Origin: Macrostomum hystrix
Taxonomy: Eukaryota > Animalia > Platyhelminthes
Reading direction: 5' to 3'
NCBI GenBank assembly: GCA_950097015.1
Contig: CATNEN010000039.1
Coordinates: 15,376,001-15,440,000, forward strand
Length of the DNA: 64,000 bases
In this document: positions 3,054 through 58,976 of the stretch, one piece after another
Position numbering within the stretch: the first letter of the stretch is position 1
Layout: each line of letters begins with the position of its first letter
Notes under the pieces: model-generated
Told to the model about the DNA's origin: nothing
The model's database searches: none
Seen by the model: only the letters and a program-made list of their open reading frames with translations
Translations under genes and position numbers: made by a program

Positions 3054-3305
3054 CACAGGATATCTGTACACAGGATAGCTGTACACAGGCTAGCTGTACA
3101 CAGGCTAGCTGTACACAGGATAGCTGTACACAGGCTAGCTGTACACAGGATAGCTGTACACAGGATAGCTGTACACAGGCAAGCTGTACACAGGCTTACT
3201 GTACAAATGCTTGCTGTGCACAGGCTTGCGGCATTTAGGCTAGCTGTACACAGGCGTGATGTACATTGGCTAGTTAACTGCTGTACTCGTGGTGATTGTA
3301 CACAG
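3054..3305. repeat. 15-bp minisatellite, right part, degenerating
   Basis: Units G(C/A)TAGCTGTACACAG. Confidence 0.9.
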
Positions 3306-3370
3306 GAGATGACTCCAATACGAGTAGTACAATGATTCCGTTTGGCTACTGAGGCACCACTACCGCCTAC

Positions 3371-11214: not shown

Positions 11215-12453
11215 ATGAATTCACGTATTACAAATCCGCTAGTTGACTATACCGACGATTTCATCGGTGGATTCGATCCCAATGCATTGCTTCAATCTGA
11301 CATCGAAACTGTGTTAAATGCTGGTGGTTACCTTCGCAGCCACCATGACATCGCCAGAATAATTGGAGCAGCGGCAGCAGAGGAGTCGAATGGACCGAAT
11401 GTGCCGAGTGCCAACCGCTTTGGCCCGCCTTTGACGTTCAACGATGCCATGGTGCTTAACAGCAGCACAAATTCGAAGAAGACCAGAGAAAGAGACAATT
11501 AAATGGGCTAGTAACGTTTTCAGCGCGTGGGTGACTGCCCGATTCCCCCAACTTCCAACAACAGTGGGTGAACTGAGCTACGACCAACTGCGTGAGTTGC
11601 TGCCGCTCTTTTTTCCCGAAGTGCGCAAACAAAATGGAGAGCGCTATCCTGCTGGGTCGCTCGTCTCTCTCGCGGCTGGACTACAGCATGGTGCGAGTAG
11701 CTCCCAGTTGTCGACCTCCGGTCGACTTTTTCGTAGTCCCGACTTTGAAGTAATTACGGAGTCCATTGATGCTACAATGAAGATTTCTACGAAGGAAGGA
11801 AACGGCTTGAAGCGCAAGAGTGCTGAGCCAATTTCCTTAGACGAGGAGGCTCAACTCTGGGAGCAAAAACTAGGTGACAAAACACCTGACCAACTGACTC
11901 GAACCCTGTTCTATCTCGACGGTCTATATTTTGCGCTACGGGGCCGCGATGAGCATTGTAATCTCACTGTAGAACAATTTCATGTGGAAATCAGGGACGG
12001 TTTCCGAGTGCTTAATTTACCAAGAAAGAAATTCTAAGACCTTTACTGGAGGCCTGAAGGAGCCTGAAGCCTGAAGGCCTTTACTGGAATCCTAGTGCGA
12101 AATGCTGGTATACCGAGCGTCCACTTGGTAAGAACACCCTGTCGACCATGGTGAAACGTCTGTATGAGGAGTCCGGCATTCAGGGTAACAAACGCAATCA
12201 CAGCCTGCGAGCGTCTTGTGCCACGAGACTGTACCGCGCTGGAGTCGATGAGCAACTTATCATGGAGACAACTGGTCACAGAAGCATCGTCGGCGTGCGT
12301 CAGTACAAACGAACAAGTGACATACAACTTCAGGACTGCTCCGCAGTGATCGACGGTCGGCAGGTGCGGCGAGCAGCTCAAGAACAATCCGGCAGTGGAG
12401 AAGTCTCAATTAAATTTTATCTGACGAACTGCAGTGTGGTGATCAATAATTAG
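11215..12453 (+). pseudogene. Frameshifted/deleted Crypton-type tyrosine recombinase (ZMYM/QRICH1/DUF3504-related)
   Basis: EVRKQNGERYP, FALRGRDEH (catalytic R), NHSLRAS (HxxR), TGHRS...RQYKR (H, Y); frameshifts near 11490 and 12020 and an apparent internal deletion near 12050-12080. Confidence 0.88.
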
Positions 12454-28735: not shown

Positions 28736-29211
28736 CTATAAAAAGTCTCGCCCATTTTGCTGCTTCTTTTTGTTTTTCGACTTGCGGCTCTTCTGCTTCC
28801 GGTGCAGCCACGGCTCAACTGGCGCGCCGCGCCCGCCCCAGAGTCCCCGGCTTGACCTCCTGGCTGCGTCCTGCTCGGCCTTGTACTCTGGGCAGCAGCG
28901 GCCCCGGTAGCACCAGGCAAGTCCGTTGGCCACCAGCCAGCGGTTGATGTCCGCGTTGTCGTGACAGACGAAGCCCAGAACGCGGCCGTACAAGTCCAGG
29001 CCTGGCGAGACAACGCACACCCGGCTGCCGACTGGCAGGCGTCGCGCCAGGGCCGACGTGGCTTCGGCACCGAACGGCTGGTCGAGCTCCGGGGCGTCGA
29101 TTTGGGCTAGCCGAATTCGAGTTGTCGACGACTTTGTTGAAGCTCCGTCAGCCTGCAGTCGCAGGGTATCGGCGTCGTGGATTGAAGCAACTCTGCCGCA
29201 CATGTACTTTT
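28736..29211 (-). CDS. Standalone thermonuclease (staphylococcal nuclease-like) domain, probable last exon
   Basis: HDADT, RIRLAQIDAPE, QPFG, DLYGRVL, INRWLVANGLAWCY, AARRSSRGLWG, EPWLHR; CAG acceptor at 29212-29214 or ATG at 29203. Confidence 0.9.
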
Positions 29212-29935
29212 CTGCGGATTCCGTAGAAAAATTAGATTTTTCCTTTCTAATTATTTCTCTTCTCCCATTCGTCTCTGATTGGCTCACACTTCGAGATAAC
29301 GATGGGGGCATGGAAGTGTATAATAAGGAGTGAGGACGGGCCAGAGGGTAAGGAATGAAAAGAAGGGGTTAGGAATAAGAGACGATTTGTGAACCAATCA
29401 GTGGCCAGAGAGAAATTTGGCAGTATTCGCAGCCAACAGCACAGCCGCAGCTATTGCGTGGCGCATCTGAAGAATGCGTACAGCTGTTCAGTCCATGGAC
29501 TGGGGGGACACCTCACGAATCCAGGGTTAAACAAAGAACAAGCTGTTGCTATGTTTTGCTTTATTTATTCTAACGTGTTTTTATAATTTTAATCAAACTA
29601 TAGTGCCTTTTTAATGTATATTTTTATACATTCTAATAGAGCATAACATCCTATGAGAACTTCTCTTATTAAAAAAACATAACAATTTTTCGGATCAGAT
29701 GTAATTTCTTGAAAATTTAGCCACAATTTAAGTAAAAGAAGTTTTCCAAAAACTTCAGTCCTGTTACACTCAACCATAGTGCTGCTAAAAAACTTTGAGA
29801 GTATGTAGCAAAACTTTTCTAAGTTAAAATCAGTCTTGTTTGACTTGGGGAGGTTGTTTTCGAAGTTGTAAATAGACTGCAGGTGAAACAGTCTTGTCCT
29901 GGGTAAGCTTGTTCAGCGAGTTACCCAATGTCTAA

Positions 29936-32610: not shown

Positions 32611-33675
32611 CTACGCAGCAGCTCCGAGTTCATGAGGCCGCGACCGCGCGTCGCCGCTCTTTGATCGAGTCTGGCCGCCGCCACTGCCCGCCAAGCCGCT
32701 GCAGCGCTCGGTCACCGATTCGAGTTTGCGACGAAAGTCAGCATTCAGCGTCAGCTGCAGCAGCGGCTTGACTGTACAGCTGCACAGAGCCAGCCAGACG
32801 AAGACATTGTGCATCGCCTGTTGCGATTCGGCCAGGAAGCGGACAAAAGTCACGTGACAGAAGTAGGGCAGCCACAGCAGGTTGAAGAGCACGTAGTTAA
32901 GCATGACGGAGGCCAGCGAACGCACTAGCTTGCGTTGCTCCGCAATCTGCCTTGCTCCGGCAATCAAGTCGCGAATGCGATTTCGCGATGCCATGACGTG
33001 AGTCAGCACTCGGCAATAGCAGAAGCCGGCCACAGCCGATGGCACAGTCACCATCAGCAGCATGACGGCCACCGCCAGAACCGGATTGCTGTCGCTATCG
33101 TCGCCGAAGAAGCACAGAAAGCTGTCTGGGACGTATCTAAACGCGCGCTGAGAGAAAACAATGCCACTGAGAGCCAGCCAGAGAATCCAGTTGATGCTTA
33201 GCCGGACAATGACGTGGCCGGGGCCCTCCAGGCAGCGATGGTAAGCCGCCTGGTGTAGCACGTACACGTAGCGATTCAGGCCGATCAGGGCGAAACTCGA
33301 ATTGGCCACGCCGACGCAGACAAAGAGGGCGCAGCCGCTAGCCAGGCAGACGTCGCTGCCGAGGATCATGGAGCTTGTGAGACGCTGGGCGAACACCAAA
33401 GGCAGGATTAGGACACAGACTAGAAGGTCACAGACTGCAATGTTGCCGACGCAAGCGTTGATACCACTCTGCAGGCTGTGAAATTTGCCAAGGAGGCACA
33501 GGATGACAATGTTACCAGCGATGCCAATGCAGGCAATCACAATGAGAAACACCAAGGCTCCAATGCGCCAGCCGGGACTGTTCAATAGCGGCGAAATAGT
33601 TGCTATGGGCACAGCCGTTTCTAGGCTGCCATTCACTTCGATGTCGGCCAGTGTGACGCTCAGATTAGCAGACAT
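32611..33675 (-). CDS. Intronless rhodopsin-like GPCR with NRY motif (melatonin receptor/moody/Tre1-like)
   Basis: GN in TM1, IAVCDL in TM2, LNRYVYV after TM3, LWLPY in TM6, N-terminal N-glycosylation sites; probable ATG at 33675. Confidence 0.9.
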   Translation of the reverse strand: MSANLSVTLADIEVNGSLETAVPIATISPLLNSPGWRIGALVFLIVIACIGIAGNIVILCLLGKFHSLQSGINACVGNIAVCDLLVCVLILPLVFAQRLTSSMILGSDVCLASGCALFVCVGVANSSFALIGLNRYVYVLHQAAYHRCLEGPGHVIVRLSINWILWLALSGIVFSQRAFRYVPDSFLCFFGDDSDSNPVLAVAVMLLMVTVPSAVAGFCYCRVLTHVMASRNRIRDLIAGARQIAEQRKLVRSLASVMLNYVLFNLLWLPYFCHVTFVRFLAESQQAMHNVFVWLALCSCTVKPLLQLTLNADFRRKLESVTERCSGLAGSGGGQTRSKSGDARSRPHELGAAA

Positions 33676-33850
33676 GGCAGTCCGGTCAGTCGGTCGGTTT
33701 TCAGAGGCCAACAAGCGGGCTTGAAGATGACAGGACTGGCGCGCGCGAGCTTAAGAGCTTGCTACGAATATCCTCCACCCCAATTCTAAAAACTGCCTGG
33801 CTGACTCACTGATTGGTTGGAAACTGGAATCCTTCATTTCGGAACAAGAA

Positions 33851-37177: not shown

Positions 37178-39151
37178 CAATACAATACAATACAATAAGT
37201 ACAATGTCCACCGACCACAAGTGGCCTGAAGATGGGGGCATTGTCAAAAAACACGTCTGGTCGCACAGTCTCTGATAAAGGCAGTGCCATTAGCCTGATC
37301 GGGCGCCCTGGTGTCTTCTAACAGACAGTCGATGAACCTCCGGGTTCGCGCCTGACCTCGCCGGTATGGGCCCTGCTGCGTGTGCAGCAAAACCTCCTGC
37401 AGCGGCTCCGGGCAGTAGGTCTCAGCGCGGAGAGCGTGACCCGTCAGCTTCAGGCGCCGTTGTCGCAGGATCACGCTTGGAGGGCTCAGCTTTGCCCGTT
37501 GATAGAGGGCCTGGTTGTGACATGATCGGTGTGGCGGTGGATGCTGAAGGCAGCGCGCAGCAGGCTGGAGTGAGCTGCGTCCAGCTGACGTTGCAGCACC
37601 TCCGTCATGGTCCAGGTTTCGGCATTGTAGAAAAGCACGGTTTCCACAACCGCCTGGAACAGTCGGGTCCTCAGCAGATCTGGCAGGGCGTCGCTTTGAA
37701 GTACGACTCGAACTGAGCGGAAAGCTGCCCAGGCGAGCCCTCTGCGACGTCGCAAATCCTCTTGGACACTGGGCACAAGACCGCAAAGATACCGGAACTG
37801 CTCACACCGGGGTAGGGATGTTGCCGTCGAGCTGTCTATGCTGGGAAGACGGATGTCAGCTGGCAGGTCAGCAGGCACAGTGAGGACCTCCGTCTTCTTG
37901 GCGTTGATTTTGAGGCCAACGCTTGCAGCGGCAGCAGCGAGGCCGTCAAGCAGGCGTTGGGCACCTTCAGCGGTGGAGGCTAACAGGGCCAGGTCGTCGG
38001 CGTAGCCTAGGACTGCCAGCCGCTTCTCTGGGTGCCGGCTGCTTGTTCGCCTGCATAGGATGTAGCCGTCTGAGTTGTCCGGTAGAACTGTCCGCAGCAC
38101 CCAGTCCAGGATGAGGATGAACAGGAAAGGAGCGAGGGTGTCTCCCTGCAGGACTCCGGATGATGTTGTGAATGGGTCAGACAGGCCATCAGGTGTGACC
38201 ACAGCGGTGAGCGTGTCTTGATAGAGCGCCATCACTGCTGCGATCAGCTTCTCTGGTACATTGTGGGCTCGGAGAACCAGTGATATCGCGCCTCGAGCCA
38301 CTGAGTCGAAAGCCTTCAGGAAGTCAACAAACAGACAGAAAAGGTCCGATTGGCGAATGCGCGATTCCTCGATGATTCTCCTGAGCGCCAGAATTTGTGT
38401 GACAGTGCCGCGTCGTGGCCGGAACCCATTCTGCTCATGCCGCAGGTACGGGTCCAGCACAGGCTGCAAGCGCATCAGTAGCAACTTGTTATACAGCTTG
38501 GCGGCGCAGGACATTAAGGAGATGCCTCGGTGTTCTTCGATCTTGTTTGTGCCCGGCTTCTTGGGGATGCCGAGGATTTGGGCTCGAGTCCACTCAGGAG
38601 GTGCGATGCCTGTGTCGAGGACACCATTGATCACCCGAGCTATCTCCTGGGCAACCTTGGGCATTCTGAGCGCCTCGATTGGGAATTCGTCGGGGCCCGT
38701 AGCCTTGCCGCCTGGTGTGTTCTTGGCGAGCTGAGAGACGTCGGTTGCAGTCACATGTCCAGTGCAGAATTTGTGTGGAGGCGGCAGCGATGTGCCTGGT
38801 GGTAGTGCGAGTGCATTGGGGAGTGCAGGAGGCGGCGCGTTCACTATGCTGGAGAAGAAGTCCCGCAGGCTGTTCTTGCGCTCCTCTGGTGTGTCCCCAG
38901 CCAGGTTAAGTGCCGAGCGCTGTTTCCTGCCCGTGAGGGTGTTGATGGCAGTCCACGGTGCCGCTCTTCCTGTTCCTCGCGGATGTGACAGCACGGATGG
39001 CATCGCCCACCGCAGCCAGCTGCTGCTCTTTATAGACAGTGGCAAGAGCATTTTCTGCCTCGTCTGTTGTGCGCCTGCTCCTCCTGAGTCGTTGCAATCG
39101 CTCTTTGGCCTCTCTGATTGATGGGTCGCTCATCCACACTGGTTGCGAGCG
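37178..39151 (-). mobile_element. 5'-truncated RTE-like non-LTR retrotransposon (RT region, frameshifted at both ends)
   Basis: RT motifs RGISLMS, EQNGFRPRR, FVDFLKAFDSV, GVLQGDTLAPFLF, YADD; (TATTG)n tail; 10-bp TSD TAAAGACATA at 37168-37177 and 39152-39161. Confidence 0.93.
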
Positions 39152-39737
39152 TAAAGACATAAAGAACCTCAAATATCCGACAAGACTACATTCTGCTCAG
39201 TGGCAATCAATATTTTTCTTGCATGCACGAGTTTTTTACGATTAGAATTGACACATTGCAAAAGAAGGGAGATCGGTGTCATAAAATGAATGTCCTAGCT
39301 GGAGCGTGAGGAATTTAAAGCTAGCGACTATTCACTATTCACCGGGGTCGGTGTCCTACCAATCGTTTCAATAGCAGCAGGGGAAATCTGAAAATAAATA
39401 GATAGATATAAATAGATAAAGGTAGCGAGCGAAGCGGAATTAGATAAGCGATGAGACCCACGTGTCGTCCTCCGGCCCGGTGAAACTCCCAATGAAAAAG
39501 GAATAACACAGTATGAACACAAAGACTCGAAGAATTTGATTTGAGAGTGATTTAATCAGTTTTGTGACTCGCTAAGATTCCAGATAAGAATTGATTTGAA
39601 TCTCGTTTACTTGCTCAAATTGATTCAAAAGTTACACTGACAGAATGAGGATGTTCACGCGGAGATAAACTATAGCGCGCTCACAGTGAAAAGCAAGTCT
39701 GGTCTAACAAATTGGACATAACAATTTTACTTAAACT

Positions 39738-40327
39738 GGCCTAATCCGCGCCCTACTCTTCCCGAGAGGCTCCGGTTGTCTCTGCTTTCAGCGCTGCCCC
39801 GACAGATCCTATCGGTTGGCACTCCTTTTGCCTGACGGCGGAGTCTCCGAAGAGAGCACGTACTGACTTCGACAACAAGCGCCTATCTAGACCACCCTTG
39901 TCAGCGGCGCACTCTCAAGACGCGTAGCGCCGAAAGCTACCTAACTGAACAAGCGGAGCGTGGTCGGGCGGGGCGAGACAAAACAAAGTGGACTGGTTTG
40001 CACGTGCTTCTCACAGTGTGAGGCGAATTGCGGAGAGCGATAAAAGTCACTGCAAAAACACGCTTCCTTTCATAGAGTCATTTTAACCCCAAATTAGGCC
40101 GATCGGCGAGGTGGATGCCTGGCTGTAGCTTGAGCCAAGGCGACAAATCACAGTAGACTCGCGACCGCCGTTCTGAGCCCCGGGGTCGCTTCTTGCCGAG
40201 GGTAGACAGGTAGTGAGGCCGGGTCGCTCGCTGATTGGCCGGGACTGTAGCCCAGGGGTAGCGCTCGCGGGGTGGTGGGCGTCCGTTCCCCCGGCTGGTC
40301 CGGCCCGGCTTGGCGTGGGTGACTTTT
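39738..40327 (+). ncRNA. Candidate large structured non-coding RNA of unknown family
   Basis: Many manually identified helices with G-U pairs on the + strand, an end-closing helix 39744-39752/40312-40320 and a terminal TTTT; no convincing ORF. Confidence 0.5.
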
Positions 40328-41325
40328 AGCTAGAAAGACACGTGCGTCTAAAATTAGACAATGAGCACCGAATAATAACACGGGGAGATAGGAGGGCAAA
40401 CAAGCTGACACTACATCGGGTGAAAATGACTCTTATAGCTGGCTCTCAAACGAATACGGCTGCGTTGGCGGCAGTCTTCTTCGATTAAAGTCTAGAATGC
40501 TAAAAATCAGGTCCACTGCTGTCACGGATCTCAGAGCTTGCGGACCAATTGGCATGTCACTGACGTCCGTTTTTCAACCTTTAAACTCGTTCAGCCACCT
40601 GTTCCCTGTCATCTTGTTGACGGAATGGTTGCCATGCGCATGCGGTGCAGAGATAGCGGTGAATAACAGCTGGTTTGTACGCGGGGCTTTAAGCTTCAAA
40701 GATAGCGATGCCGCAGATTGATTGCCACTGGCAGAATGCTACTACATGTAGCAGCTATTTGAGGCTCTGTAAGTCTGTGGCTGATCTCCCTCTACTTAAA
40801 AGCACCTTGCTCTTCAAAACATATCGAAATCGATTGCACTTCAAATCATAAAAAAGAAGCGACTTCCCACTTTTAAACAATACCAAATTGTCGTTCCGAT
40901 TCGACTTACAAACATTCGCAACAGGTAAAAGTAGCACTACTTTCCAGCCGGACGAAGCCTCGTACTTAGAAGTTAGATAAATTACATTATAAGGACGTCT
41001 ATTTATTTTTATAGGTTTAAGATCGGCCTATCACATATAAAATTTTTCGAATACGCTCGTACTGTGTAATGATTGATGTTCTTGGCTATCATTTTGCACA
41101 ATGATTAACACGAATTAGTTGTGACGTTCTATTTAGAACGGGCTCTCTAGATTGGCGTTAAATCTACATTATTTACGTCAGCCTATATAACGTACACAGT
41201 AAAGTAATTATAGTTTTTCATTAGCGTGTGTTTGCGCTATGAAAAGAAGCATATCACTTGTCGATACTACATGTCAGTTTTGTTGGAATAATTTTTTTTT
41301 CTAGCTATGGTCGCTTTCATTCGCT

Positions 41326-44184
41326 TTAATTGCATTCGTCTTGGATATCTTGCAAGCGTCTAAGGCGCCTTTCCCGGCGCCGATTCTTGTCAATTAGGCG
41401 GAGAAGTTGGCGAACAGCTCGACTAAGAGACCGGTCGGCAGGGGCGTCGTCTCGCCGACGCGCAGCTCCGACGCTCTGCAGGTGCCAGCGATGATGCCGA
41501 ACTCGGCACAGACGGAGCTCGCGCACCAACCGAATCGCGGGTTGGCCGTGTCTGGCAATTTATAAAAAAAATTTGTGAACTACTGTTGATCCATTTAAAG
41601 AAAAAAATAATTGCACGAGGGCTGCAGGCAATGGCACATCATTTGGTGACATTAGACCTGCAGACAACGAGGAGGCAATGCTGACTCCTGAGCACACGCA
41701 CTGCACAGGTGTGTAAATCTGTCCTGACTTTCTTATAGTCAGGCAGGGTGAGGCAGTGTACACTCTCACAGTGCTTAGGAGGTCGGCCCTCAAGGGCGTA
41801 AATTGCACGACAAGCCCCCAAGCCTTCTCTCCGCGGCTGCGCCAAATGAATGTGGCCTCGCCTCGGAATCGAGCTCAGGGACCTCATGCTTAAAGAGGCA
41901 AACGCGATAACTGTTTGCCACTCACCCCGTAACACAATCGCCATGCAAGTCAATGAATTTCAATTTGATTAACTGCTGATTGTAATTTGGCGCATGATAA
42001 TAAATCACGCTGAGCATGAGGGCAATGGAGGGGCCGATTACTCCCCCCCCCAATTTAGGCGTTATCATACTGTAACCTGCAATAATTTAAGAATGCGCAC
42101 ATCACTTTGAATCATGGACATTTGAAGCGTGCGACTATAGTTTACTCTGAGCGCGCAGCAATTCATCATTGGTGACGCTTCAAATGTCTATGGATCAAAG
42201 TGACGTGCAATTTGGCTACACCAGTTGCACTTGTGCAGTTGTCTATGCATGGCCCCACAGATACTATAATAACAGCGAGGAGGATTCTTTTCCCGCTCGC
42301 CCGGGGCGATAAACGGAACTATTTGTCCTAGACAACTCACAAACACAGGCTTAACTTGACGCTTTGAAACTTAACAGGCAATTATTAATCAGGTCCTTCG
42401 CGCACGATAAACTGCCCCTTTAACTTCCTCAATTACTTTTAACGTTTAGCAAGTGTACCGGTCACTTGTCAGACAAGCTATTCCACCGATTCGGCAACCG
42501 TCCTCACCCGAATGATTAATGATCTCATACATGAACTTGTCAGACAAGCTATTCCACCGATTCGGCAACCTTCCTCACCTGAATGATTACTGATCTCATA
42601 CCTGAACTTGTCAGACAAGCTATTCCACCGATTCGGCAACCTTCCTCACCTGAATGATTACTGATCTCATACCTGAACTTGTCAGACAAGCTATTCCACC
42701 GATTCGGCAACCGTCCTCACCCGAATGATTAATGATCTCATACCTGAACTTGTCAGACAAGCTATTCCACCGATTCGGCAACCTTCCTCACCTGAATGAT
42801 TACTGATCTCATACCTGAACTTGTCAGACAAGCTATTCCAACGATTCGGCAACCGTCCTCACCCGAATGATTAATGATCTCATACCTGAACTTGTCAGAC
42901 AAGGTATTCCACCGATTCGGCAACCGTCCTCACCCGAATGATTACTGATCTCATACCTGAACTTGTCAGACAAGCTATTCCACCGATTCGGCAACCTTCC
43001 TCACCTGAATGATTACTGATCTCATACCTGAACTTGTCAGACAAGCTATTCCACCGATTCGGCAACCGTCCTCACCCGAATGATTACTGATCTCATACCT
43101 GAACTTGTCAGACAAGCTATTCCACCGATTCGGCAACCGTCCTCACCCGAATGATTAATGATCTCATACCTGAACTTGTCAGACAAGGTATTCCACCGAT
43201 TCGGCAACCGTCCTCACCCGAATGATTACTGATCTCATACCTGAACTTGTCAGACAAGCTATTCCACCGATTCGGCAACCTTCCTCACCTGAATGATTTC
43301 TGATCTCATACCTGAACTTGTCAGACAAGCTATTCCACCGATTCGGCAACCGTCCTCACCCGAATGATTACTGATCTCATACCTGAACTTGTCAGACAAG
43401 CTATTCCACCGATTCGGCAACCTTCCTCACCCGATTGATTACTGATCTCATACCTGAACTTGTCAGACAAGCTATTACACCGATTCGGCATTCTTCCCCA
43501 CCTGAATGATTACTGATCTCATACCTGAACTTGTCAGACAAGCTATTCTACCGATTCGGCATTCTTCCTCACCTGAATGATTACTGATCTCATACCTGAA
43601 CTTGTCAGACAAGCTATTCCACCGATTCGGCAACCTTCCTCACCCGATTGATTACTGATCTCATACCTGAACTTGTCAGACAAGCTATTCTACCGATTCG
43701 GCATTCTTCCTCACCTGAATGATTACTGATCTCATACCTGAACTTGTCAGACAAGCTATTCCACCGATTCGGCAACCGTCCTCACCCGAATGATTAATGA
43801 TTAATGATTAACGGTGAGACTTCGTGTGCTTTACCCGGAATAACTTAAGCTTCTATTTAAGTCTGATATCTAATATTCACGGGGGGGCTCACCTCGCCGC
43901 ATCCGCCTTCGCTGCCAGCAGCAGAATCGGTCCGCGAAGCTCAGCAAAGCTGCGATCCCTTAGCAGCACATCCTGCAGCCTGTCGCGCGCCTCATTCCAA
44001 CTGTCCGGATCGGCGAAATCTACGACGTAGATGACAGCGTCAACGAAGTGCAACAGGCGGCTCCAGACGGGCAAGAGGCGTGCCGAGCCGCCAACCTCCA
44101 CGAGGGTGAGGCGTCGGTTGTCAGACAATTCCAGCGTGGTCTCAAGAGTGCCTTGTGTTGGCTCTGGGACTCGATAAGCTAAGC

Positions 44185-44220
<36 letters not shown>

Positions 44221-44368
44221 CTAGACGGTATGCAATCTGCGTCTTTCCAGCATTGCTAGCACCGAGTACCGCCACTCGATACTCGGCCGATCGCCTCCGT
44301 GAATTGCCGCCGGCAAGCCAAGATCCGGCAGATTGTATCAGACTGAGCAGCAGCTGCAGCTCAAGCAT
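41326..44368 (-). CDS. Divergent Arf-like (ARL) small GTPase, 2 exons, about 233 aa
   Basis: Exons 44368-43893 and 41551-41326 (phase 2); VAVLGASNAGKT, PT, LVEVGGS, AVIYVVDFAD, LLLAAKAD, RWHLQSVGA. Confidence 0.88.
41601..41928 (-). mobile_element. tRNA-derived SINE, family A, intronic
   Basis: Reverse complement colinear with 18344-18703. Confidence 0.88.
42097..42208. repeat. Foldback / MITE-like inverted repeat
   Basis: 34-bp arms 42097-42130 and 42175-42208, 30/34 match, 44-bp spacer. Confidence 0.75.
42464..43800. repeat. 71-bp minisatellite, about 19 units, in the ARL intron
   Basis: Unit ACTTGTCAGACAAGCTATTCCACCGATTCGGCAACCGTCCTCACCCGAATGATTACTGATCTCATACCTGA. Confidence 0.97.
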
Positions 44369-45610
44369 GTCTGTCTCAATTCCGAGTAGTTGGATTAGCT
44401 TTTTAATTCTCCAAAAAAGATGTTGCTTGCTTTTTCGCTTCTGTATAACTATATATGGCCCTCAATCGCTGTGTAAATATTGGCGCTACTCAGCCTCCAT
44501 AGGCCTGTACGCCTAGATATGCACGCAGTTTCTTGGTAATATCCTTCTAGGGCAGCTTCAGCTGGGGACAAAAATACGGAAACTATAGAATTGCAATAAG
44601 AAGCATTAAATGGGTAAAAGAGAGAGGAGAGAATTTCCGCAGCCACGGAGTAGAGAGGAACGGATTTGGTCGTGAGGAAGAGACGAAATAGAAGAGAGAC
44701 AGAGAGGGATAGAGTGGGATTGTAGAGGACAGGCAAAGCAAACACGGATTAAGGGGATGCATACAGAATGTACACTTGGCCAAACACAGGCGGCATATAT
44801 ACATGTACATTTTTGCGGCCTGAATTTAGCTTATAGGTTTATCAATTTCTTTTGCTTTGCTTTGTGGCGTGCTTTGCAGCGCCTGAGCTGCTGCAAGTTG
44901 CCCTGCAAGCTTTTTTACTGGCCAATCCCAAACTTTTACCGCTTCCGTCTATATCTGCAGTCCCGCGATGAATTGTGTGATGTAACTGCGACTTTAGGGG
45001 GTATAATAATCTTTTTTAGGATTAGCTTCCCTGCGTCCCTTCCCTTCCCTTCGCTTTCTCCCCTCGATGACTCATCGTCTGTGACCTTGAGCTGTCAAAA
45101 CCCTTCTCAGTCAAAAATCTTCATATTTTTTCTGTCGCATTGCCGTCAAAATGCGCCCACCTCCCTCCTTTTTGAGTAATTCACGACTTCCTCAACTGTC
45201 AAGCGCCACCACCCCACCTCCCTTTCCAATTGCGCACATGGCCATAAAAAATTTCATATTTTTGGATCGCACTACCATCTCACTTCTTTGTTTTTCTTGT
45301 CAACATGCACCCACCCCACTCCATGTAATAAATCACCCCTTTTCCCGGGCCTGCACCCACCCATTACTCCCCGACCAAAAACCGATCGGCAGGCGAGGCA
45401 CGTGATCTGGCTGTCCAAAATCTCGGTCAGGGTCGGGCTGACCACGCGATCACGGCGTGAGCGCGTGACTCTGGGCTCTATTTAAGTGCAGCAAGCGAGT
45501 GGTGCTGCGCGCAGTTCAAGCAGACCTTTCGTTTTCCGTTCGATCCGTTTCGTTCACCTTTTCTTTCGTTGTCGTCACCTTCCGACGTTCCGTTCTCATC
45601 CGATCTCACA

Positions 45611-47420
45611 CGACAAGGCCCTGCTCATCCACTGCCTGGGTGCAGAGGGTCAGAACATCTTCATGTTGATTCAGCCGGTGGACGAAAGAGAAAAGCCGAA
45701 AACCGTGGTGGCGACTCTGCAGCTGCTGGACAAGCATTTCGGGCCGAAGGTCAACGTCGTGGCCGAACGGCACCGGTTCCGGCAGAGAGCTCAGCGGCCT
45801 GGCGAGAAAATCAGCGACTTCATCGCCGCACTGCGGAGCCTGGCAGCCAACTGCGACTTCAAGACTTTCCAGGAAGAGATGCTGAGGGATCAGCTCATCG
45901 AGAAGGTGCTCAGCAACCACATCCGTGAGCGACTGTTGATGGAGCCGAAGCTGACCCTGGAAACCGCCGTTCAGCTCACCGAACGGCTGGAGACCGGATT
46001 GCTCGAAGCCCAGGCCTTAAAGGGAGGCAACCGCGCAGACTCCGGTATCGCACAGGGAGTCCAGAACGTCAACAGTCGACGGCCTGATAGCTGGAAAGGC
46101 AAGGCGACAGCAAAGCGGCAGGAGACACCAAGGCCGGTCTCCGACTCCGGCCGGAACTGTGGCAACTGCGGCAAGGGAGCGCATCAGCGTGGACAGACCT
46201 GCCCGGCAAAAGGCAAGGAATGCAAGGCCTGCGGGAAGCTGGGGCATTTCGCCAGGGTCTGCAGGAGTGGAGGCCAGGTGCGACAGCTTGACGACGACTA
46301 CTCTGTCTGCACAGTGAAAACGGCCGTGGCAGCCAGCAAGTACTGTGAGGTGCTGCTGAACGGACTGCCTGTCAAGCTGCTCGTGGATTCCGCTCCCGGG
46401 TGTCCATCATCACTAAGGCGACCTACGGGAGGCTCTTTTCCAAGGTGCCGCTGCACGCGTCATCTCGGAAGCTGGTTGCGTTCAACGGCAGCAAAATCCA
46501 AGTGCTCGGCGACGTTCTGGTGTCCGTGCAGCTCAAGGAAAAGGTCGTGCCCTACTGCAACATCAGCGTGGTCAAGATGGGCTCCGACATCCTGGGCTGC
46601 GATCTCATGGATCAGCTGGGACTGCAGATCGTTACGGCAGACGGTGAACGGGTGCAGACGTTCGGTGACAGAGCCCTGCCTGACTGGATCCCGAGCCGGT
46701 TTGACCAGCTGACCAGAGGACTCGGGCACATCAAGGGATTTCAGCACAGGCCGCGAGTGAACCCGGCGGTGCAGCCGACTGCTGAGCAGCTGCGCAGAGT
46801 GCCGCTTAGTCTGCGTGACGCGGTGCATAAGGAGATCGACAAGCTGCTGCAACAAGGCATCATTGAGGAGGTCGACTCTTCGGACTGGGTTTCGAACCTG
46901 GTTGTGGTCCCGAAGGCCAACAGCGCGATTCGAATCTGCAACGACCTGAGAGGTCCGAACAAGAGCATCATACCGGACAGGTACCCGCTGCCAACCTTCG
47001 AGGAGCTCTCAGTCGAGTTTGAAAGTTCGCGGGTCTTCTCGAAACTGGACCTCAACTCATCCTACCTGCAGCTGGATCTGGCTGAAGACTTCAGGAACCT
47101 AACAACATTCGTGACTGAGCGAGGCCTGTACCGCTACCGGAGAGTCTGCTTCGGTCTCTGCAGCGCACCAGCCGCATTCCAGAAGGTCCTCGCCAAGATA
47201 CTCGGCGGCATCAAAGGCGCAGTGCACTTCATGGATGACATCGTGGTGCATGCAACTTCCAAGGATGAGCACAATAAGCAGCTGCTCATGGTGTTGCAAG
47301 CGTTGTTGACGCACAACGTGACCATCAACCCGGCCAAGTGCGCTTGGAGGCAGGAAAAAGTCAACTTCCTGGGCTACGAGCTGAGTGCATCCGGAGTCAG
47401 ACCACTGCGATCACACGTGC
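45611..47420 (+). mobile_element. Truncated Mag-like gypsy gag-protease-RT fragment
   Basis: AERHRFRQRAQ, LRDQL, CCHC knuckles, protease motif broken by a frameshift near 46390, RT KLDLNSSYLQ and FMDD; ends before RNase H; no paired LTRs seen. Confidence 0.9.
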
Positions 47421-48249
47421 AGCCAGCGTCAATTCCACTTAAAAGCTCCAGCCCTCCAAAACAGGCGTGCAATGCTTTATATATTTCTCAATCAATGCAT
47501 GTACATTAAAGAGGTGTCATTGGCATGTACATTGCGCAATCACCATTAAGCAATACTAGCAATCGGCCCACAGCACCAATATTAAAGTTCGCAACGTCAC
47601 AACAGCCTGCAGCCAGAGCCTCGCCGTCGGATCGGTGAGTTTCCCTTTTCTTGGGTTTGCTTTTCTCCTATGCGCTGGGGCAACTTCTAATTGTGCCAGT
47701 TTACTAAGCCCGTTACTCGGACTCTCTCCTAATTTACTGTATAATTTATGCGTTAATTGTGGCATTACATAATCGAACAGATTAAACGAATGGGATTATC
47801 AAATAGTCTGTGGGAACAGCTAAATCTTTATGACCAAATCTTTGTTTATCTTCTTTACTTCGTCAATTTGAATGGCGCAGATGGAGTAAGCTATAGTGCG
47901 CTGCTGCGGGGCCAAAGAATGAGGCCATGAGTACTTTTCTTAGATCGGATAATTCCGCAACACACAGCCGAAGTCCATCGACGATAGACCGACGAATAAG
48001 CATGCGAACTTAATTAGAATATCATATGATTTGATACAGTATGTTCCCAACCTAATGCTAATGCAAGACTAATGTAATTATAAATGCACTCTTAGTAGGG
48101 CTAGTTGGCTTTGCACACGAGAAAATATGGAAGCCGAACCTTAACCTATACTTGCATCGTTGGGGCCTGGTGACTAAGAGTAAATACTAATCCTAAATAA
48201 GCAGTGGACACGCTCGACCTTGGGCTGGCCCCTATCTTAGCTGCATCCC

Positions 48250-51200
48250 TGTGAGGCTTTCTTACGTAATATATTTGTACCACCCCGTTTTGGCCAATGG
48301 CTATAAATAGACAATGTGCGCACCGCGCGCGGGCAGATTTCTGCACTCTGGCTCTCAGTAGCCTCAGATAACTTACATCTGTCTTAGACAGAATGTCACA
48401 TGGTGGCAGCGGTGCAGGCTCAACTAAGCCATACAACCTGCGATCCAGAGATACAACAGGCGAATCTGCAGCCTCCAACAGGACGAGCTCGGCAGAGATG
48501 GAGACTGGTGCCACTGAAAGCGAGGAACTGAGCGGAATAGATAGTGCCAACCTCATGGAGACGATGAAGCTGATCTTGACGCACCAGAGTCGGCAACTTC
48601 AGGACATGGCACAGGCTCAGGAGAGACAGTCGGCATTCTATCTGGAGCAGCTAGCACGACAGCAGGCGGAATTCGCCAGACTCATGGCCGAGTCCAAGCC
48701 GAGACCGCAGACCGTGGAGCCGAAGCTGTTCAAGCTGACTGACGCGGACGACATAGAGTCATTTCTGGCGACATTCGAGAGATCGGCAACATCATGCGGA
48801 TGGCAGAAGCAAGATTGGACGATTCGACTTGGACCACTGCTGACGGGCAAGGCGCAAAGTGCATTCTACAGCCTGACGACAGCAGCGAGTGCGGACTATG
48901 AGATGGCAAAGGCGGCAATCCTGGCGCGGTATAACATTGTCGAGGAGACGTACCGGCAGCGATTCAGATCCTTGCGGAGGGCATCGGAGGAGTCGTACCA
49001 AGTGTTCGCCGCGAAACTGGAGGACCTATTCGATCGATGGATGACCGCTGGAGTGGACGAGGATGAGCGTGAGGAGCTGCGAGGAGGCGACACCATCATC
49101 AGACGGAAGGTGCTGCTGGAGCAATTCTCGGACTCGCTGGGGAGAGGACTCCAGGTGTGGATGCGAGAGAGGAAGCCGAAAAACATCAAGGAGGCGGACG
49201 AATTAGCGGACGACTATTATATGGCCCGCAGCAACGACAGAAACGGCGGAACTCACGATCAACGGAGTCAGGAAACACAGGATGTGAGTCATGTTAGGGC
49301 TAGCAATGCCGACCGGCACCGGGAAATTCAGAGAGCCCCAATGTCGAAGACGAAGATCAGCTGCTTTAACTGCGGAGGCCCCCACAAGAAGTTCCAATGC
49401 CCGAATAAGCCGAACAACAGCATCCATCTGGCCTCGGAAGACATGAAAGTCGGCACCAGCACTACAGGGACCAAAATGATTAAGGGGAAGGCAAGTGGCA
49501 AGGATCTGGAATTCCTCATGGACACTGGAGCGGATCGAACGACAATTCGACGTAATTGTCTCCCCGAAGACATCAATTGGACAGGGCGGCATGCACTATT
49601 GCGATGCTTTGGAGGCGATCTACACCGGCTACCTATTGCTAAAGTGGATTTGCACCTAAACGGCTTTGAGGGAATTGCCGATGTCTGCGTGTCTGACTCT
49701 CTACCGGTGAGCGCGTTAATTGGATTAGACTTGATTGGCCGGCTAGCCCCAGGGGTCGAAAACCCCACTGCCGCTGCGGGCGCTGCCCAGACTGCATACG
49801 AGACCCAGGCTGCAGACCCGCACCCTCCGGCCAATCAGGAGAAAGGGGTGGTGGGCGCTCCTGTCTGCCCCATACCCCAGTCCGAGGGGGACAGAGCGCT
49901 CGCGGACGAAGGCATTATGGCTAGCGGCCTAGTCCAGATCGATCCGGAGCCCCCCAGTACACAAAGGCCTAGACTGACCAGAGCCCAAGCGCGTAAACAA
50001 CGGCAAGAGTACAGAGAGAAAATGGAACCCAATATCGGCCAAATGGCTTGGGACTACGAGGCGGCAATCCAGGAGGACGGAGAAATGCTGGAGAAGTTGC
50101 GCGACAACGATGCCATCATAAAGGTTAACGGTCGGCTTTACCGGACCCAAGCAGCAGGCGAAGACCAACTAGTGCTACCAAAGTCTCTCAGGCTGACGGC
50201 GCTGACTCAGGCTCACGAGAGTGCCTTCGCAGGACATTTGTGTGTCAAGAAGACGAGCCAGCGGTTGCTGCAACGATTCTGGTGGCCTACCGTGGCCAAA
50301 GACGTCAAGGACTTCGTGACTACTTGCGACAAATGTCAGAAGACTGCTCGGATCGGTTGCACTCAAAAAGTACCGCTCGTGCAAGTACCAGGAGTAGAAG
50401 AAGCCTTCAGCAAGGTGATCATTGACATCAGCGGACCGTATCCGAAGTCCTCAAGCGGCCACAAGTACATTTTATCCGTGATCGATGCAGCGACCCGGTT
50501 CCCGGAGGGCTTTCCGCAGCGGAATATCGACGCCGAAACGGTGGCCAAGGCGCTGATCGACTGCTTCTCAAGAACTGGCTTCCCCAAAGGAGATCCAAAG
50601 CGACAAGGGCACGAACTTCTCGTCAGCGTTGCTGCAGGCCTTGTACCAATGCACTGGAGTTAAAGGCATTCAGTCAACGCCGTACCACCCGCAAAGCCAG
50701 GCGCTCGTGGAACGATTTCACGGCACACTCAAGACTATGCTCCGAAGGCTACCAGCCCGCGAAAAAAAGAAGTGGGACCTCTACCTGCCATACCTGCTAT
50801 TTGCTATCAGGGAGGTTCCGAATGAGACTACTGGGTTTTCACCATTCGAACTGCTCTACGGCCGGACTGTCCGAGGACCCCTGGATCTGCTGCGACAGAC
50901 GTGGGACGAGAAGCTGACCGCGGAGAAGAAGGACATCATCACCTTTGTCCTGGCCCAACGAGACCGGCTGCAGGCAGGGCTGGAGGCGTCAAGAAGTAAC
51001 GAGGAGCTGGAAAGAAAGCGGTGGAAGCACTGGTATGACCGGAGGTCTCGCGAGAGGGAGCTGGCGCCGGGTGATCAAGTGCTGCTGCTGCTGCCGTCGT
51101 CATCCACGAAGCTGCATGCTGAATGGCGAGGCCCCTATGAGGTCCTGGAGAAGTGCAACGACGTGAACTATCGGATTAGAATCGGCAAGAATACGAATGT

Positions 51201-53016
51201 GTTTCACATCAACCTGCTGAAGAAGTATAACTCGCGAGAGTCAATCTTGTTGGCAACGACCCGGAAGGCAGACCAGATCGACTCAGCACAAAGGAAGTCA
51301 GGCCTGCCGCAGCTGGCCGACACTCTGAACTTCGGGCAGAAGCGGCTCCTAGACAGTCTGGTTTGCGACTTCAAGGATGTCTTCAGCGAGACCCCCGGCA
51401 GGACGAGCCTGATGGAGCATCGAATCCGAACAACGTCTAACCAGGTGGTGCGCATCCGGCCGCGGCGGGAGCCGCAGGCATACCGGCAAGTTCTGCAGGA
51501 CGAGGTTCAGCGTATGCTGGACCTGGGTGTCATCGAACCGTCCGACAGCGACTACTGCTCCCCGGTGTGTCTGGTAGCCAAGAAGGACGGCTCAGTTCGG
51601 TTCACCGTCAACTTCAAGGCGCTCAATGAGCTGGTGGCTTTCGACTCCTACCCGATGAAGAACATCGAGGACCTGCTGGAGAGCGTCGCGAAGGCTAAGT
51701 TCATATCCAAGCTCGACTGCTGCAAGGGCTACTGGCAGATCCCGCTGGCCGAAAACTCCAAGCGGCTGACAGCATTCGCGGCCAATGGCAAGCTGTATCA
51801 GTTCACTGTGCTGCCTATGGGACTGAACTGCAGTAGCGCCACCTACCAGAGGCTGATGGACAAGGTGCTTCTCGGAATCGACAGTGCGGAGTCCTACATC
51901 GACGACATCGCCGTGTTTAGCGAGACGTTCGAGCAGCACCTCCAAGATCTACGGCGAGTTTTCAATCGGCTGAAAGCAGCTGGGCTAACTGTCCAGCCAC
52001 GCAAATGCTTTCTAGGCGGCACCTCGACGGACTACCTCGGATTTAAGCTGGGAAGCGACGAGATCAGCACCAGCGAGGACCGAGTACGGGCAATCAAGGC
52101 GCTTGAGCAACCCCGAACCAAGACTCAGCTGCGATCGGTGCTCGGCGTGCTCAACCACTATCGCCGGTTCATCCCGAACTACGCGGACCAGGTGGCGGCA
52201 CTGACGGAGCTCACCAGGAGAACGACGCCCGAGGACCTGACGGCGGCCTGGGGCGAGAAGCACACGCGAGCATTCGAAGTGGCCAAGGCACTGATGACAA
52301 GCGAGCCGGTGCTGCGCGCCCCGGACTACGGCCGGCCTTTCATCCTGGAGACGGACAGCTCGGAGACCGGCCTCGGAGCGGTGCTGACGCAGGAGTTCGA
52401 GGACGGCATTCACCCGGTGCTCTTCGTGTCTCGGCGGCTGACGGCGGCGGAGCAAGGTTACGCGACCATCGAGAAGGAGTGCCTCGCCGTGCGCTGGGCG
52501 GTCGAGAAACTGCGGCACTATCTGCTTGGGCGCCACTTCATCATCCGGTCGGACCACAAGCCGCTGCAGTACCTGCAACTGGACCACGCCAACCCGCGGC
52601 TGCAGCGATGGGCCCACTACCTGTCGGGCTTCGACTATGCGATCCAGTACCAGCCGGGCGAGAGCAACGGCGCCGCGGATGGCCTGAGTCGGCTTTGGAG
52701 TCCGACCAAGTGATTGATCTTATATGACAAACAGTGACAATGACTTTCAATTCGCTCATGTTGGTTAATTGTTTGAAGTGTTTTTTTCTAGCGTACAGTT
52801 AAATTTTGGTCTGTGTGTTTTCATGCCGTTTGATTTGGAGCGATTTTCGAACTTTTGGTGGAGGGTGTGAGGCTTTCTTACGTAATATATTTGTACCACC
52901 CCGTTTTGGCCAATGGCTATAAATAGACAATGTGCGCACCGCGCGCGGGCAGATTTCTGCACTCTGGCTCTCAGTAGCCTCAGATAACTTACATCTGTCT
53001 TAGACAGAATGTCACA
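48250..53016 (+). mobile_element. Full-length Gmr1-like LTR retrotransposon (gag-PR-IN-RT-RH)
   Basis: Identical 151-bp LTRs 48250-48400 and 52866-53016; 5-bp TSD ATCCC; PBS TGGTGGCAGCGGTG (tRNA-Leu type); PPT GGTGGAGGG. Confidence 0.97.
48393..52713 (+). CDS. Polyprotein with one +1 frameshift in integrase near 50586
   Basis: SCAN-like YRQRFRSL, CFNCGGPHKKFQC, MDTGA, integrase HHCC + D/D/E + GPY, then RT YIDD, then RNase H ETDSS/EKECLA/SDHKPL; the true start codon may lie downstream of 48393. Confidence 0.93.
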
Positions 53017-57646: not shown

Positions 57647-58976
57647 CGAGGGTTGTCCGGCCAAAAATAGGACTGCTCAAATATTACTTCAACTATGTGA
57701 GATATGAATCTGAAAATCGATAATAATATTTTTCAATGTCTATGGACATAACTCCTCAAAAAGCTACAGCAGCGCATTTATGGTTTCTTGACACTGCTTA
57801 AGGCAAGCTTTTGCCTATCGCATACCCCTACGACATTTCCTAGCACTTATCTTACCACTTACGATGGTTAAATAGCGCGAAATCGTTGTTGACTGCTTCA
57901 AGGCCGGGAGATTGGCCAAGGAGTGCATGCAGCACCTGCAGGCCATCTACGGCAGCGAAGCCTTGTCGCGGAGCCAAGTGTATTACATATTTGAACAGCT
58001 TCGTGAAGGTCACGATGGCTCTGATGGCAGAGGTCACCATCGTGATCCAACTGTTAGGACGCCAGCGAATGTGGCGATGGTTGAGGAGCTGATCAGCGAC
58101 GACAGGCGTCTCACTGTCAGGGAACTGTCTGACTTGACTGGCATATCGAAGACAACTGTTGACGAGATTCTGACCAAGGATCTGCAGCTCAAGCATGCGT
58201 CAGCAAGATGGGTGCCGCACCTTCTGACTGAGGAGAACCGAGCTGAGCGAGTTCGCTGCGCCAAGAACTTCTATCGCCTGATGCGCAGCAATCCCGGCTT
58301 CCTTGATCGAGTCATCACTGCTGATGAGACATGGCTGCACTATGTGACGCCAGAGACCAAGGTTCAGTCGAAGCAGTGGGTTCCGCGTGCAGCTGCGGCC
58401 CCAACGAAAGCGCGGGTGTCGCGCAGTGCCAAGAAGACCATGGCCATTGTGTTCTTCGACTCGAGCGGGCTGGTGTACACGCATTATGTGCCAAATGGGC
58501 TGACGGTCAACAGCCAGTACTACTGCGAGGTCCTGGACACTCTGCAAGATCATATCAGCCGCAAGAGGCCGCAGCTGGCGCGAAGAGGCTGGTTCCTCCA
58601 TCATGACAATGCCCGCCCCCACGTGTCAGCGTTGACCCAGCAGTTCCTGGAGAGGCGAGGCATTCAGACTGTGCCACATCCGCCGTACTCCCCGGACTTG
58701 GCCCCATGCGACTTTTGGCTATTTCCTAAAGTCAAAGCCGCGATCGCTGGTGCCCGTTTTGACTCCCTACAGGAGGTCAAGAATGCTTGGGAGGGGGTCA
58801 CGACCCCTATGCCTGCGTCTAGCTTCGCTGAGGCCTTCGACAAGTGGCTGGTGAGGTGGGAGCGGAGTCTGGAGAAAGGTGGCAACTTTGTTGAGAAGTG
58901 ACTCAAGTTTCGTTTTGTTTGCATGCATTGTTGCTGAGTTATTAAAGCAGTCCTATTTTTGGCCGGACAACCCTCG
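57647..58976 (+). mobile_element. Mariner DNA transposon, 1330 bp
   Basis: Perfect 31-bp TIR CGAGGGTTGTCCGGCCAAAAATAGGACTGCT; TA on both sides. Confidence 0.97.
57864..58901 (+). pseudogene. D,D34D mariner transposase with an in-frame TAG at codon 4
   Basis: WVPHLL, ITADETW, HDNARPH, YSPDLAPCD; ATG 57864 is in frame, TAG at 57873-57875. Confidence 0.85.

What the first reader, a model, noticed from the sequence alone, without database searches (positions are those of the whole stretch)
39738..40327. Candidate ~590-nt multi-domain structured RNA of unknown class
Helices seen by eye on the + strand: end-closing ATCCGCGCC 39744-52 / GGCGTGGGT 40312-20, followed by GACTTTT; CTACTCTT 39753-60 / GAGGGTAG 40198-205; TTGTCTC 39776-82 / GAGACAA 39975-81, enclosing TGCTTTC/GAGAGCA with two hairpins and a nested GACCAC-CTTGT-CAG-CGGCGC stem; a three-way junction closed by TCGGCGAGG 40103-11 / TCTTGCCGA 40191-99; and a long hairpin AGGCCGGGTCG 40216-26 / CGGCCCGGCTT 40301-11 plus GATTGGCCGGG 40233-43 / CCCGGCTGGTC 40290-300. 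Possible long-range or alternative pairings: GCTACCT 39936-42 / GGGTAGC 40256-62, GGCCTAAT/ATTAGGCC, TAAAAGTCAC/GTGACTTTTA. Many non-Watson-Crick positions are G-U on this strand, suggesting selection at the RNA level. I found no convincing hallmark of RNase P/MRP, SRP, 7SK, U snRNAs, group I/II introns or a TTAGGG template. Inference: a Pol III-like ncRNA, or a structured RNA carried by a mobile element.
Basis: partly seen in the sequence, partly recalled or inferred. Interest (0 to 1): 0.8.

Follow-up and report, generated by a model that had tools for sequence, protein, structure and literature searches.

The report
Folded 3′ half of flatworm LTR
The 590-base stretch is the better-conserved, GC-rich second half of a 1,139-base repeat that is spread through the genome of what is likely a Macrostomum-related flatworm. 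The repeat is likely a lone retrotransposon end (solo LTR), not a new stand-alone RNA gene, and its folding has only weak support.

Summary
The listed helices are in the sequence, but the stretch folds no better than shuffles (z +0.24 on +, −0.21 on −) and has no Rfam match (2, 11, 45). It is not the natural unit. It lies inside a 1,139-bp element, 39277–40415, that begins TGT, ends ACA and is flanked by a 4-bp direct repeat (38). Contig depth over the element is about 90–380 times that of the flanks in one run (16), and contigs of other runs stop matching at the same two ends (16, 19). The best reading is a solo LTR, probably Ty3/Gypsy-type; the host is probably Macrostomum-related (20). A Pol III gene is not supported. 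One feature is unexplained: the 16 nt just after the 3′ end are 15/16 complementary to 40074–40089.

The parts
39277..40415 (+). Whole repeat element, 1,139 bp, TGTCA…CTACA; likely solo LTR (orientation inferred, not shown)
   Evidence: depth 7,600–31,800 vs 70–83 in single-copy bins; ends
39273..39276 (.). Left copy of 4-bp direct repeat TCGG (likely target-site duplication)
40416..40419 (.). Right copy of TCGG; ACA followed by TCGG occurs once in the 64-kb window
39277..39438 (+). Conserved 5′ block (about 92% in X17, X18, X19 over 39285–39438); holds the only AATAAA on + (39393)
39439..39751 (+). Variable AT-rich segment (likely U3 enhancer part). One X17 contig has 311 other letters in place of these 313; lowest depth in X1.
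39752..39965 (+). Most conserved block (89–100% in the pieces listed); predicted multi-helix domain (39769–74/39954–59, 39784–89/39932–37, 39791–97/39924–30)
40097..40240 (+).
40117..40141 (+). Hairpin with a double-sided change, U40120–A40137 to C–G (X17, X18, X19; U·G in X12)
40242..40284 (+). 4-bp helix 40242–45/40281–84, defined after seeing the data; G40242–C40284 becomes A–U in X12, X17, X18
   Evidence: (table 3 and loose ends)
40418..40433 (+). 16 nt just outside the 3′ end, 15/16 complementary to 40074–40089; unexplained (PBS position)
39260..39272 (+). 13-purine run ending 4 nt before the 5′ end (PPT position); unexplained

Best explanation
The stretch is the conserved second half of a 1,139-bp interspersed repeat with TGT…ACA ends and a 4-bp flanking duplication, likely the solo LTR of a Ty3/Gypsy-type retrotransposon. 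Shown: the ends, the flanking repeat in this copy, the multi-copy depth, different flanks in other runs, and uneven conservation. Inferred: a full-length element was inserted by a DDE integrase, and recombination between its two LTRs removed the coding part. The variable 39439–39751 segment would be U3 and the conserved GC-rich part R/U5 (or late U3/R). That part would be present in the element's Pol II transcript and would fold there as a cis-acting signal for its own life cycle (export, packaging or strand transfer), in the way the structured RcRE in the HERV-K LTR serves export. That the fold is under selection is about even odds (0.45); which function it serves is untested.
For: Ends TGTCA/CTACA and TCGG on both sides fit the short inverted repeats of animal LTRs (PMC3601003, passages). 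4-bp TSDs occur in the flatworm CsRn1 clade (PMC2582038, passages), and CsRN1 families are reported in M. lignano (PMC12801592, section 5 part 1 of 2). X1 depth is 7,633–31,838 in the six bins over 39258–40439 against 70–83 in single-copy bins. 5′ end: contigs stop matching at 39277 (X11 record 8, X17 record 6, X19 record 21) or at 39285 with loose letters ending TGT (X17 record 7, X18 record 13), with different flanks where shown. 3′ end: one X19 contig carries the same last 12 letters and then a different flank. No long terminal inverted repeat; no ATG-started frame above 13 codons. [quoted passage not shown] Structure hints: two double-sided changes; one-sided transitions in predicted stems give G·U on + 12 times and A·C 5 times (p 0.07).
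Against: No full-length copy with two LTRs, PBS, PPT and gag-pol was seen; no homologous locus was fetched in 7 scans. The TSD rests on one copy (1/256 by chance) and the 3′ end on one foreign contig. The only AATAAA on + is at 39393, far from the expected place, and there is none on minus. X1 may be the window's own source, and contig depth is not a copy number. The 15/16 complement after the 3′ end and the purine run before the 5′ end are not expected of random flanks. On structure: MFE is not better than shuffles; C40187G and G40188A break 40161–66/40184–89; G39791A, G39837A, G40004A and G40046C break predicted pairs, with partner changes not visible in the cut table.
Confidence: 0.7

Rival explanations
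1. Same LTR, but the conservation is at DNA level (promoter and factor sites) or reflects recent spread with U3 swapping, and the helices are what a GC-rich sequence gives by chance. This rival concerns only the RNA part of the best explanation.
For: z +0.24. Watson-Crick stems are not enriched. GC-box at 39966, CACGTG at 40001 and 40339, CCAAT on minus at 40238 (motif names recalled). Several predicted pairs are broken in relatives.
Against: Two double-sided changes. Listed changes at 39808, 39828, 39834, 40017, 40071 and 40115 fall in positions predicted unpaired. The GC-box region is deleted or altered in X12 and X18.
Confidence: 0.45
2. A non-autonomous DNA transposon of Ginger or similar type, with TGT ends and a 4-bp TSD.
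For: Ginger ends follow TGTNR and make 4-bp TSDs; Ginger1 prefers CCGG/CCGT, one letter from TCGG (PMC2836005, passages). No paired-LTR copy was seen.
Against: Ginger TIRs are 40–270 bp; here the ends match over a few letters only. Flanks of other copies show no CCGG preference.
Confidence: 0.1
3. The copy is a 5′ LTR followed by a self-priming site. Transcription would start near 40072, about 30 nt after a TATA-like GATAAAAG, the first ~18 nt would pair with 40418–40433, and the 340-nt loop between them would fold to bring primer and site together, as recalled for Tf1/sushi.
For: 15/16 complement starting 2 nt after the ACA end; 4 of 8,952 control 25-mers score as well against the reverse strand (6 in either orientation). 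The duplex forms with pair probability 0.64–1.0 at 15 of 16 positions in the predicted ensemble. Hairpin priming by chromoviruses is mentioned in PMC3601003.
Against: The arm overlaps the right TCGG, so the 4-bp repeat would have to be chance. DNA beyond 40440 is single-copy in X1, and the + strand stop-to-stop frames there are short (at most 109 codons; not scanned against Pfam). The one foreign 3′ flank is different. Chromoviruses are not among the clades listed for M. lignano. The match was found after the fact.
Confidence: 0.05
4. A stand-alone Pol III non-coding RNA gene, or a cellular RNA captured into the LTR with its own Pol III promoter (Cassandra/Helenus/Ajax-like).
For: One RNA-library run (X12) covers only 39797–40322 and none of the 5′ block, and one of its contigs would start near 39743. 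A box-A-like 12-mer lies at 39737.
Against: A second RNA run of the same study (X18) has contigs running into the 5′ flank and upstream of 39736. No GGTTC box B, 5S box C, tRNA or Rfam hit. Two internal T4 runs; the one at 39826 is private to this copy, while the one at 40081 is the main form in X1. The box-A-like segment is altered in X19.
Confidence: 0.1

Closest known systems
Solo LTRs of animal Ty3/Gypsy (Metaviridae) retrotransposons, e.g. CsRN1-clade elements of flatworms
   Same: TG…CA short inverted ends, 4-bp TSD, no coding frame, variable middle and conserved 3′ half.
   Different: 1,139 bp is long next to PwRn1 (381 bp) and the 151-bp LTRs of another element in this window. No AATAAA at the usual place. 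Parent element not found.
HERV-K(HML-2) RcRE, a 433-nt structured export element in the LTR U3 (PMC11379458, passages)
   Same: A several-hundred-nt folded cis-element inside a ~1-kb LTR: a 'works like' analogy only.
   Different: No sequence relation tested; no binding protein or export function shown here.
TRIMp3 elements Cassandra, Helenus, Ajax (PMC10886601, parts 1–3 of 6 read)
   Same: LTR element proposed to carry an RNA-gene-like module; animal Helenus make 4-bp TSDs.
   Different: No tRNA or 5S-like part and no box B; their LTRs are 323 bp or shorter.
Plant LTR retrozymes (PMC4918200, passages)
   Same: Non-coding LTR elements with 4-bp TSDs, many solo LTRs and a structured RNA inside the LTR.
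   Different: No hammerhead here (no CUGANGA core, no Rfam hit); their LTRs are 300–400 bp.

Membership tests
Solo LTR (Ty3/Gypsy-type) | TG…CA short inverted ends | tested here: met
   TGTCA…CTACA; ends supported by foreign contigs
Solo LTR (Ty3/Gypsy-type) | 4–6-bp target-site duplication | tested here: met
   TCGG on both sides, this copy only
Solo LTR (Ty3/Gypsy-type) | Interspersed copies with the same ends and different flanks | tested here: met
   five contigs at the 5′ end, one at the 3′ end
Solo LTR (Ty3/Gypsy-type) | AATAAA and TATA-like stretch defining U3/R/U5 | tested here: inconclusive
   AATAAA only at 39393; TATAAA at 39407 disrupted in relatives
Solo LTR (Ty3/Gypsy-type) | Parent element with two such LTRs, PBS, PPT, gag-pol | not testable with these tools
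   no genome held; no homologous locus in 7 scans
Pol III type-3 ncRNA gene (U6/7SK-like) | First T4+ run marks the 3′ end | tested here: not met
   T4 at 39826 and 40081 precede 40324
Pol III type-3 ncRNA gene (U6/7SK-like) | Conserved upstream PSE and TATA | tested here: inconclusive
   upstream not alignable at 80% in X17 record 7; short motifs could be hidden; no flatworm U6 promoter was at hand
Pol III type-3 ncRNA gene (U6/7SK-like) | Discrete transcript | tested here: inconclusive
   contigs only; X12 and X18 disagree
Helenus/Cassandra/Ajax (TRIMp3) | tRNA- or 5S-derived promoter in the LTR | tested here: not met
LTR retrozyme | Hammerhead ribozyme in the LTR | tested here: not met
   no CTGANGA on either strand; no Rfam hit; the look-alike at ~39449–39515 lacks the core in X17 and X19 loose ends
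Ginger DNA transposon | 40–270-bp terminal inverted repeats | tested here: not met
Metazoan telomerase RNA | Template of about 1.5 TTAGGG repeats | tested here: not met
   no 11-mer within 1 mismatch; only 6-nt pieces (motif recalled)
Tf1/sushi-type self-priming LTR element | PBS complementary to the transcript's 5′ end (recalled) | tested here: inconclusive
   15/16 complement in one copy, start site not mapped
Conserved structured RNA (any class) | Significant covariation | tested here: inconclusive
   hand count on 40 of 106 difference rows plus loose ends; no alignment could be built

The most novel reading that the evidence does not exclude
A flatworm LTR family keeps a ~590-nt multi-domain RNA module, of no described class, under base-pair-level selection across species. 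It switches between exclusive long stems and either is made as its own transcript or primes reverse transcription on itself through the 16-nt complement behind the LTR.
Probability: 0.15. Interest if true: 0.65.

Novelty: new member of a known kind. Interest (0 to 1): 0.3.

Why it matters
As it stands this is a repeat annotation: an LTR-like family, probably of Macrostomum-related flatworms, not found in the papers searched. If deep alignment confirms a conserved 500–600-nt fold, it would be a large cis-acting RNA in an invertebrate retrotransposon LTR, comparable to retroviral export elements. The family's many diverged copies would make that fold easy to solve by covariation and to test in a worm with working transgenesis.

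Tried and rejected
Rfam: 0 hits at gathering score over the whole window. At relaxed E-values: 3 chance hits, none inside 39738–40327, 0 and 0. ARAGORN found no gene. No genome is held. Pattern scans for homologous loci: metagenome contigs 0 and 0; viral contigs 2, 0, 0, 0; prokaryote genomes 1. The three loci match only over the seed, 18–23 nt, and were dropped as chance. No second copy in the window. Earlier-findings look-ups returned nothing. Six motifs were not found in the 5 supplements of PMC12801592; cells over 400 characters are cut there, so family consensus sequences may have been invisible. A GPCR search for host identity gave nothing at E ≤ 1e-30. The adjacent RT frame 37486–39129 (minus) was rejected as part of the element: its depth is about tenfold lower and it lies outside the 39277 end. 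Hammerhead look-alike at ~39449–39515: rejected, core absent. HDV-like double pseudoknot using GGCCTAAT/ATTAGGCC as P1: rejected by eye, as the junction lacks the recalled C/A residues and the 5′ strand is altered in X19. RNase P-like P4 (CCCGGCTT at 40304): no CR-I motif and no Rfam hit.

Full report
Setting. The window is animal DNA rich in minisatellites and mobile elements. One window protein has a Macrostomum lignano protein as its best hit (67% identity over 96%, next hit 42%), so the host is probably a Macrostomum-related flatworm; this rests on one protein. No genome is held.

Observation. All 7 coordinate-given helices and the two named long-range complements are present. The stretch folds no better than shuffles (z +0.24 on +, −0.21 on minus), and no 120-nt window of 40 reached z −2. 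The one signal above chance is an excess of stems of 11 bp or more with G·U on the + strand (10 vs about 3; 0–1 of 200 shuffles). It vanishes for Watson-Crick-only or strength-weighted stems, and many of these stems exclude each other. Rfam gives nothing in the stretch. T4 runs at 39826 and 40081 precede the proposed terminator.

The real unit. In run X1, summed contig depth is 7,633–31,838 in the six bins over 39258–40439 and 70–83 in single-copy bins, about 90–380-fold. X1 may be the window's own source, and depth is not a copy number. The sequence reads TCGG|TGT at 39277 and ACA|TCGG at 40415, 1,139 bp apart. Three contigs (X11, X17, X19) stop matching at 39277. Two more (X17, X18) stop at 39285 with loose letters ending in TGT, and the flanks shown differ. 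One X19 contig shares the last 12 letters and then leaves. There are no long terminal inverted repeats and no ATG frame above 13 codons. These features fit a solo LTR: short TG…CA inverted ends, with R/U5 more conserved than U3 (PMC3601003, 12 passages), and 4-bp TSDs as in the flatworm CsRn1 clade (PMC2582038, 8 passages). CsRN1 is among the clades listed for M. lignano (PMC12801592: abstract, section 5 part 1 of 2 and supplement 1 read). The parent element was not found.

Conservation is uneven (substitutions only, gaps not counted). The block 39285–39438 is about 92% identical in three runs. One X17 contig has 311 unalignable letters in place of 39439–39751. Pieces over 39745–39968 are 89–100%, over 40087–40218 86–87%, and over 40189–40278 94–96%. 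How far apart these organisms are is unknown.

Structure against the relatives' differences. This is a hand count on 40 of 106 rows and 18 of 22 loose ends, plus loose ends; pairs were checked. For: U40120–A40137 becomes C–G in X17, X18 and X19, with U·G in X12. G40242–C40284 becomes A–U in X12, X17 and X18, in a 4-bp helix that I defined after seeing the data. G40105A turns G·U into A–U in the 14-bp stem 40097–110/40227–40. The 3′ strand for 39776–81 is kept with A-to-G changes in X11, X12 and X18 loose ends despite nearby deletions, though the register is uncertain. One-sided transitions in predicted stems gave G·U on + 12 times and A·C 5 times (p 0.07). Two further loose-end changes, one each way, were not counted, and the tally depends on which helices are chosen. 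C40187G and G40188A break 40161–66/40184–89. G39791A, G39837A, G40004A and G40046C break predicted pairs. The 5′ strand of the end-closing helix is altered in X19. With about 13% of positions changed, one double change among 8 pairs is not rare (my estimate is about 0.1).

Expression. Only contigs were available. RNA-library run X12 covers 39797–40322 and none of the 5′ block. RNA-library run X18 of the same study also covers 39285–39438 and runs into flank. No discrete RNA, strand or end can be read from this.

Unexplained. The 16 nt at 40418–40433 are 15/16 complementary to 40074–40089; 4 of 8,952 control 25-mers score as well. A 13-purine run ends 4 nt before the 5′ end (0.17% of window positions). 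The 3′ flank also resembles the element's start (15 of 12,531 controls). The first two are the places of a PBS and a PPT. A TATA-like GATAAAAG lies about 30 nt before 40072, which would fit Tf1/sushi-type self-priming (mechanism recalled; hairpin priming is mentioned). But the complement overlaps the TSD, DNA beyond 40440 is single-copy, and all three were found after the fact. I give self-priming 0.05.

Mechanism. Likely: integrase insertion of a Gypsy-type element, then LTR–LTR recombination, leaving this solo LTR (0.7). The conserved half would sit in the element's Pol II RNA and act in cis, like the 433-nt RcRE in the HERV-K LTR (PMC11379458, 12 of 24 passages); this is an analogy, with about 0.45 that the fold is selected. 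Membership fails for Helenus/Cassandra/Ajax (PMC10886601, parts 1–3 of 6), retrozymes (PMC4918200, 9 passages), Ginger (PMC2836005, 10 passages) and telomerase RNA.

Literature. Nine searches were answered. No listed title or abstract describes this family or a structured RNA in a Macrostomum LTR. The library is limited to open papers, only the top listings were seen, and repeat libraries such as Repbase or Dfam could not be searched, so the family may already be catalogued.

Verdict. A real, conserved segment of a multi-copy LTR-like repeat; not a demonstrated new RNA class. New member of a known kind, interest 0.3, with a 0.15 chance of a more novel RNA module.

Noticed in passing
window 48250–53016 (+): LTR retrotransposon with 151-bp 100% identical LTRs, 5-bp TSD ATCCC, a TGG-starting PBS and a PPT. 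SCAN, protease and integrase lie before RT and RNase H (Gmr1-type order, label recalled), so it is a very recent insertion.
   Followed up: partly
window ~41606–41884: Very high-copy short repeat (X1 depth up to about 730,000 vs 83), with pieces also in X3, X11 and X12; SINE- or MITE-like.
   Followed up: no
window 37486–39129 (−): RT frame of a LINE-like element (RTE-like by eye), X1 depth about 900–3,700, ending about 125 bp from the LTR.
   Followed up: partly
window 28739–29311 (−): Staphylococcal-nuclease-domain frame, 67% to an M. lignano protein. The other named hits are mostly bacterial thermonucleases (one plant) at 30–43%, so possibly a horizontally acquired gene.
   Followed up: no
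window 11444–12037 (+): DUF3504/QRICH1 frame, Crypton-like tyrosine recombinase region (label recalled).
   Followed up: no
window 264–3053: Direct repeats 264–500 / 2821–3053 next to 15-bp arrays, enclosing an integrase fragment on minus: a likely deleted LTR element.
   Followed up: no
window 42464–43801: 71-bp tandem array (18.8 copies) whose minus strand reads like the C-terminal end of a LINE ORF2 (recalled motif).
   Followed up: no
window 45486–47509 (+), 57912–58901 (+), 32611–33714 (−), 43889–44368 (−): PNMA-type gag plus RT of a second Gypsy element; mariner/Tc1-type transposase; rhodopsin-family GPCR; Arf-like GTPase frame.
   Followed up: no
window 40178–40185 and 40098–40107: Self-complementary 8-mer and 10-mer inside the conserved part. 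The 8-mer is unchanged in the two fully listed relatives; possible dimerisation signals.
   Followed up: no
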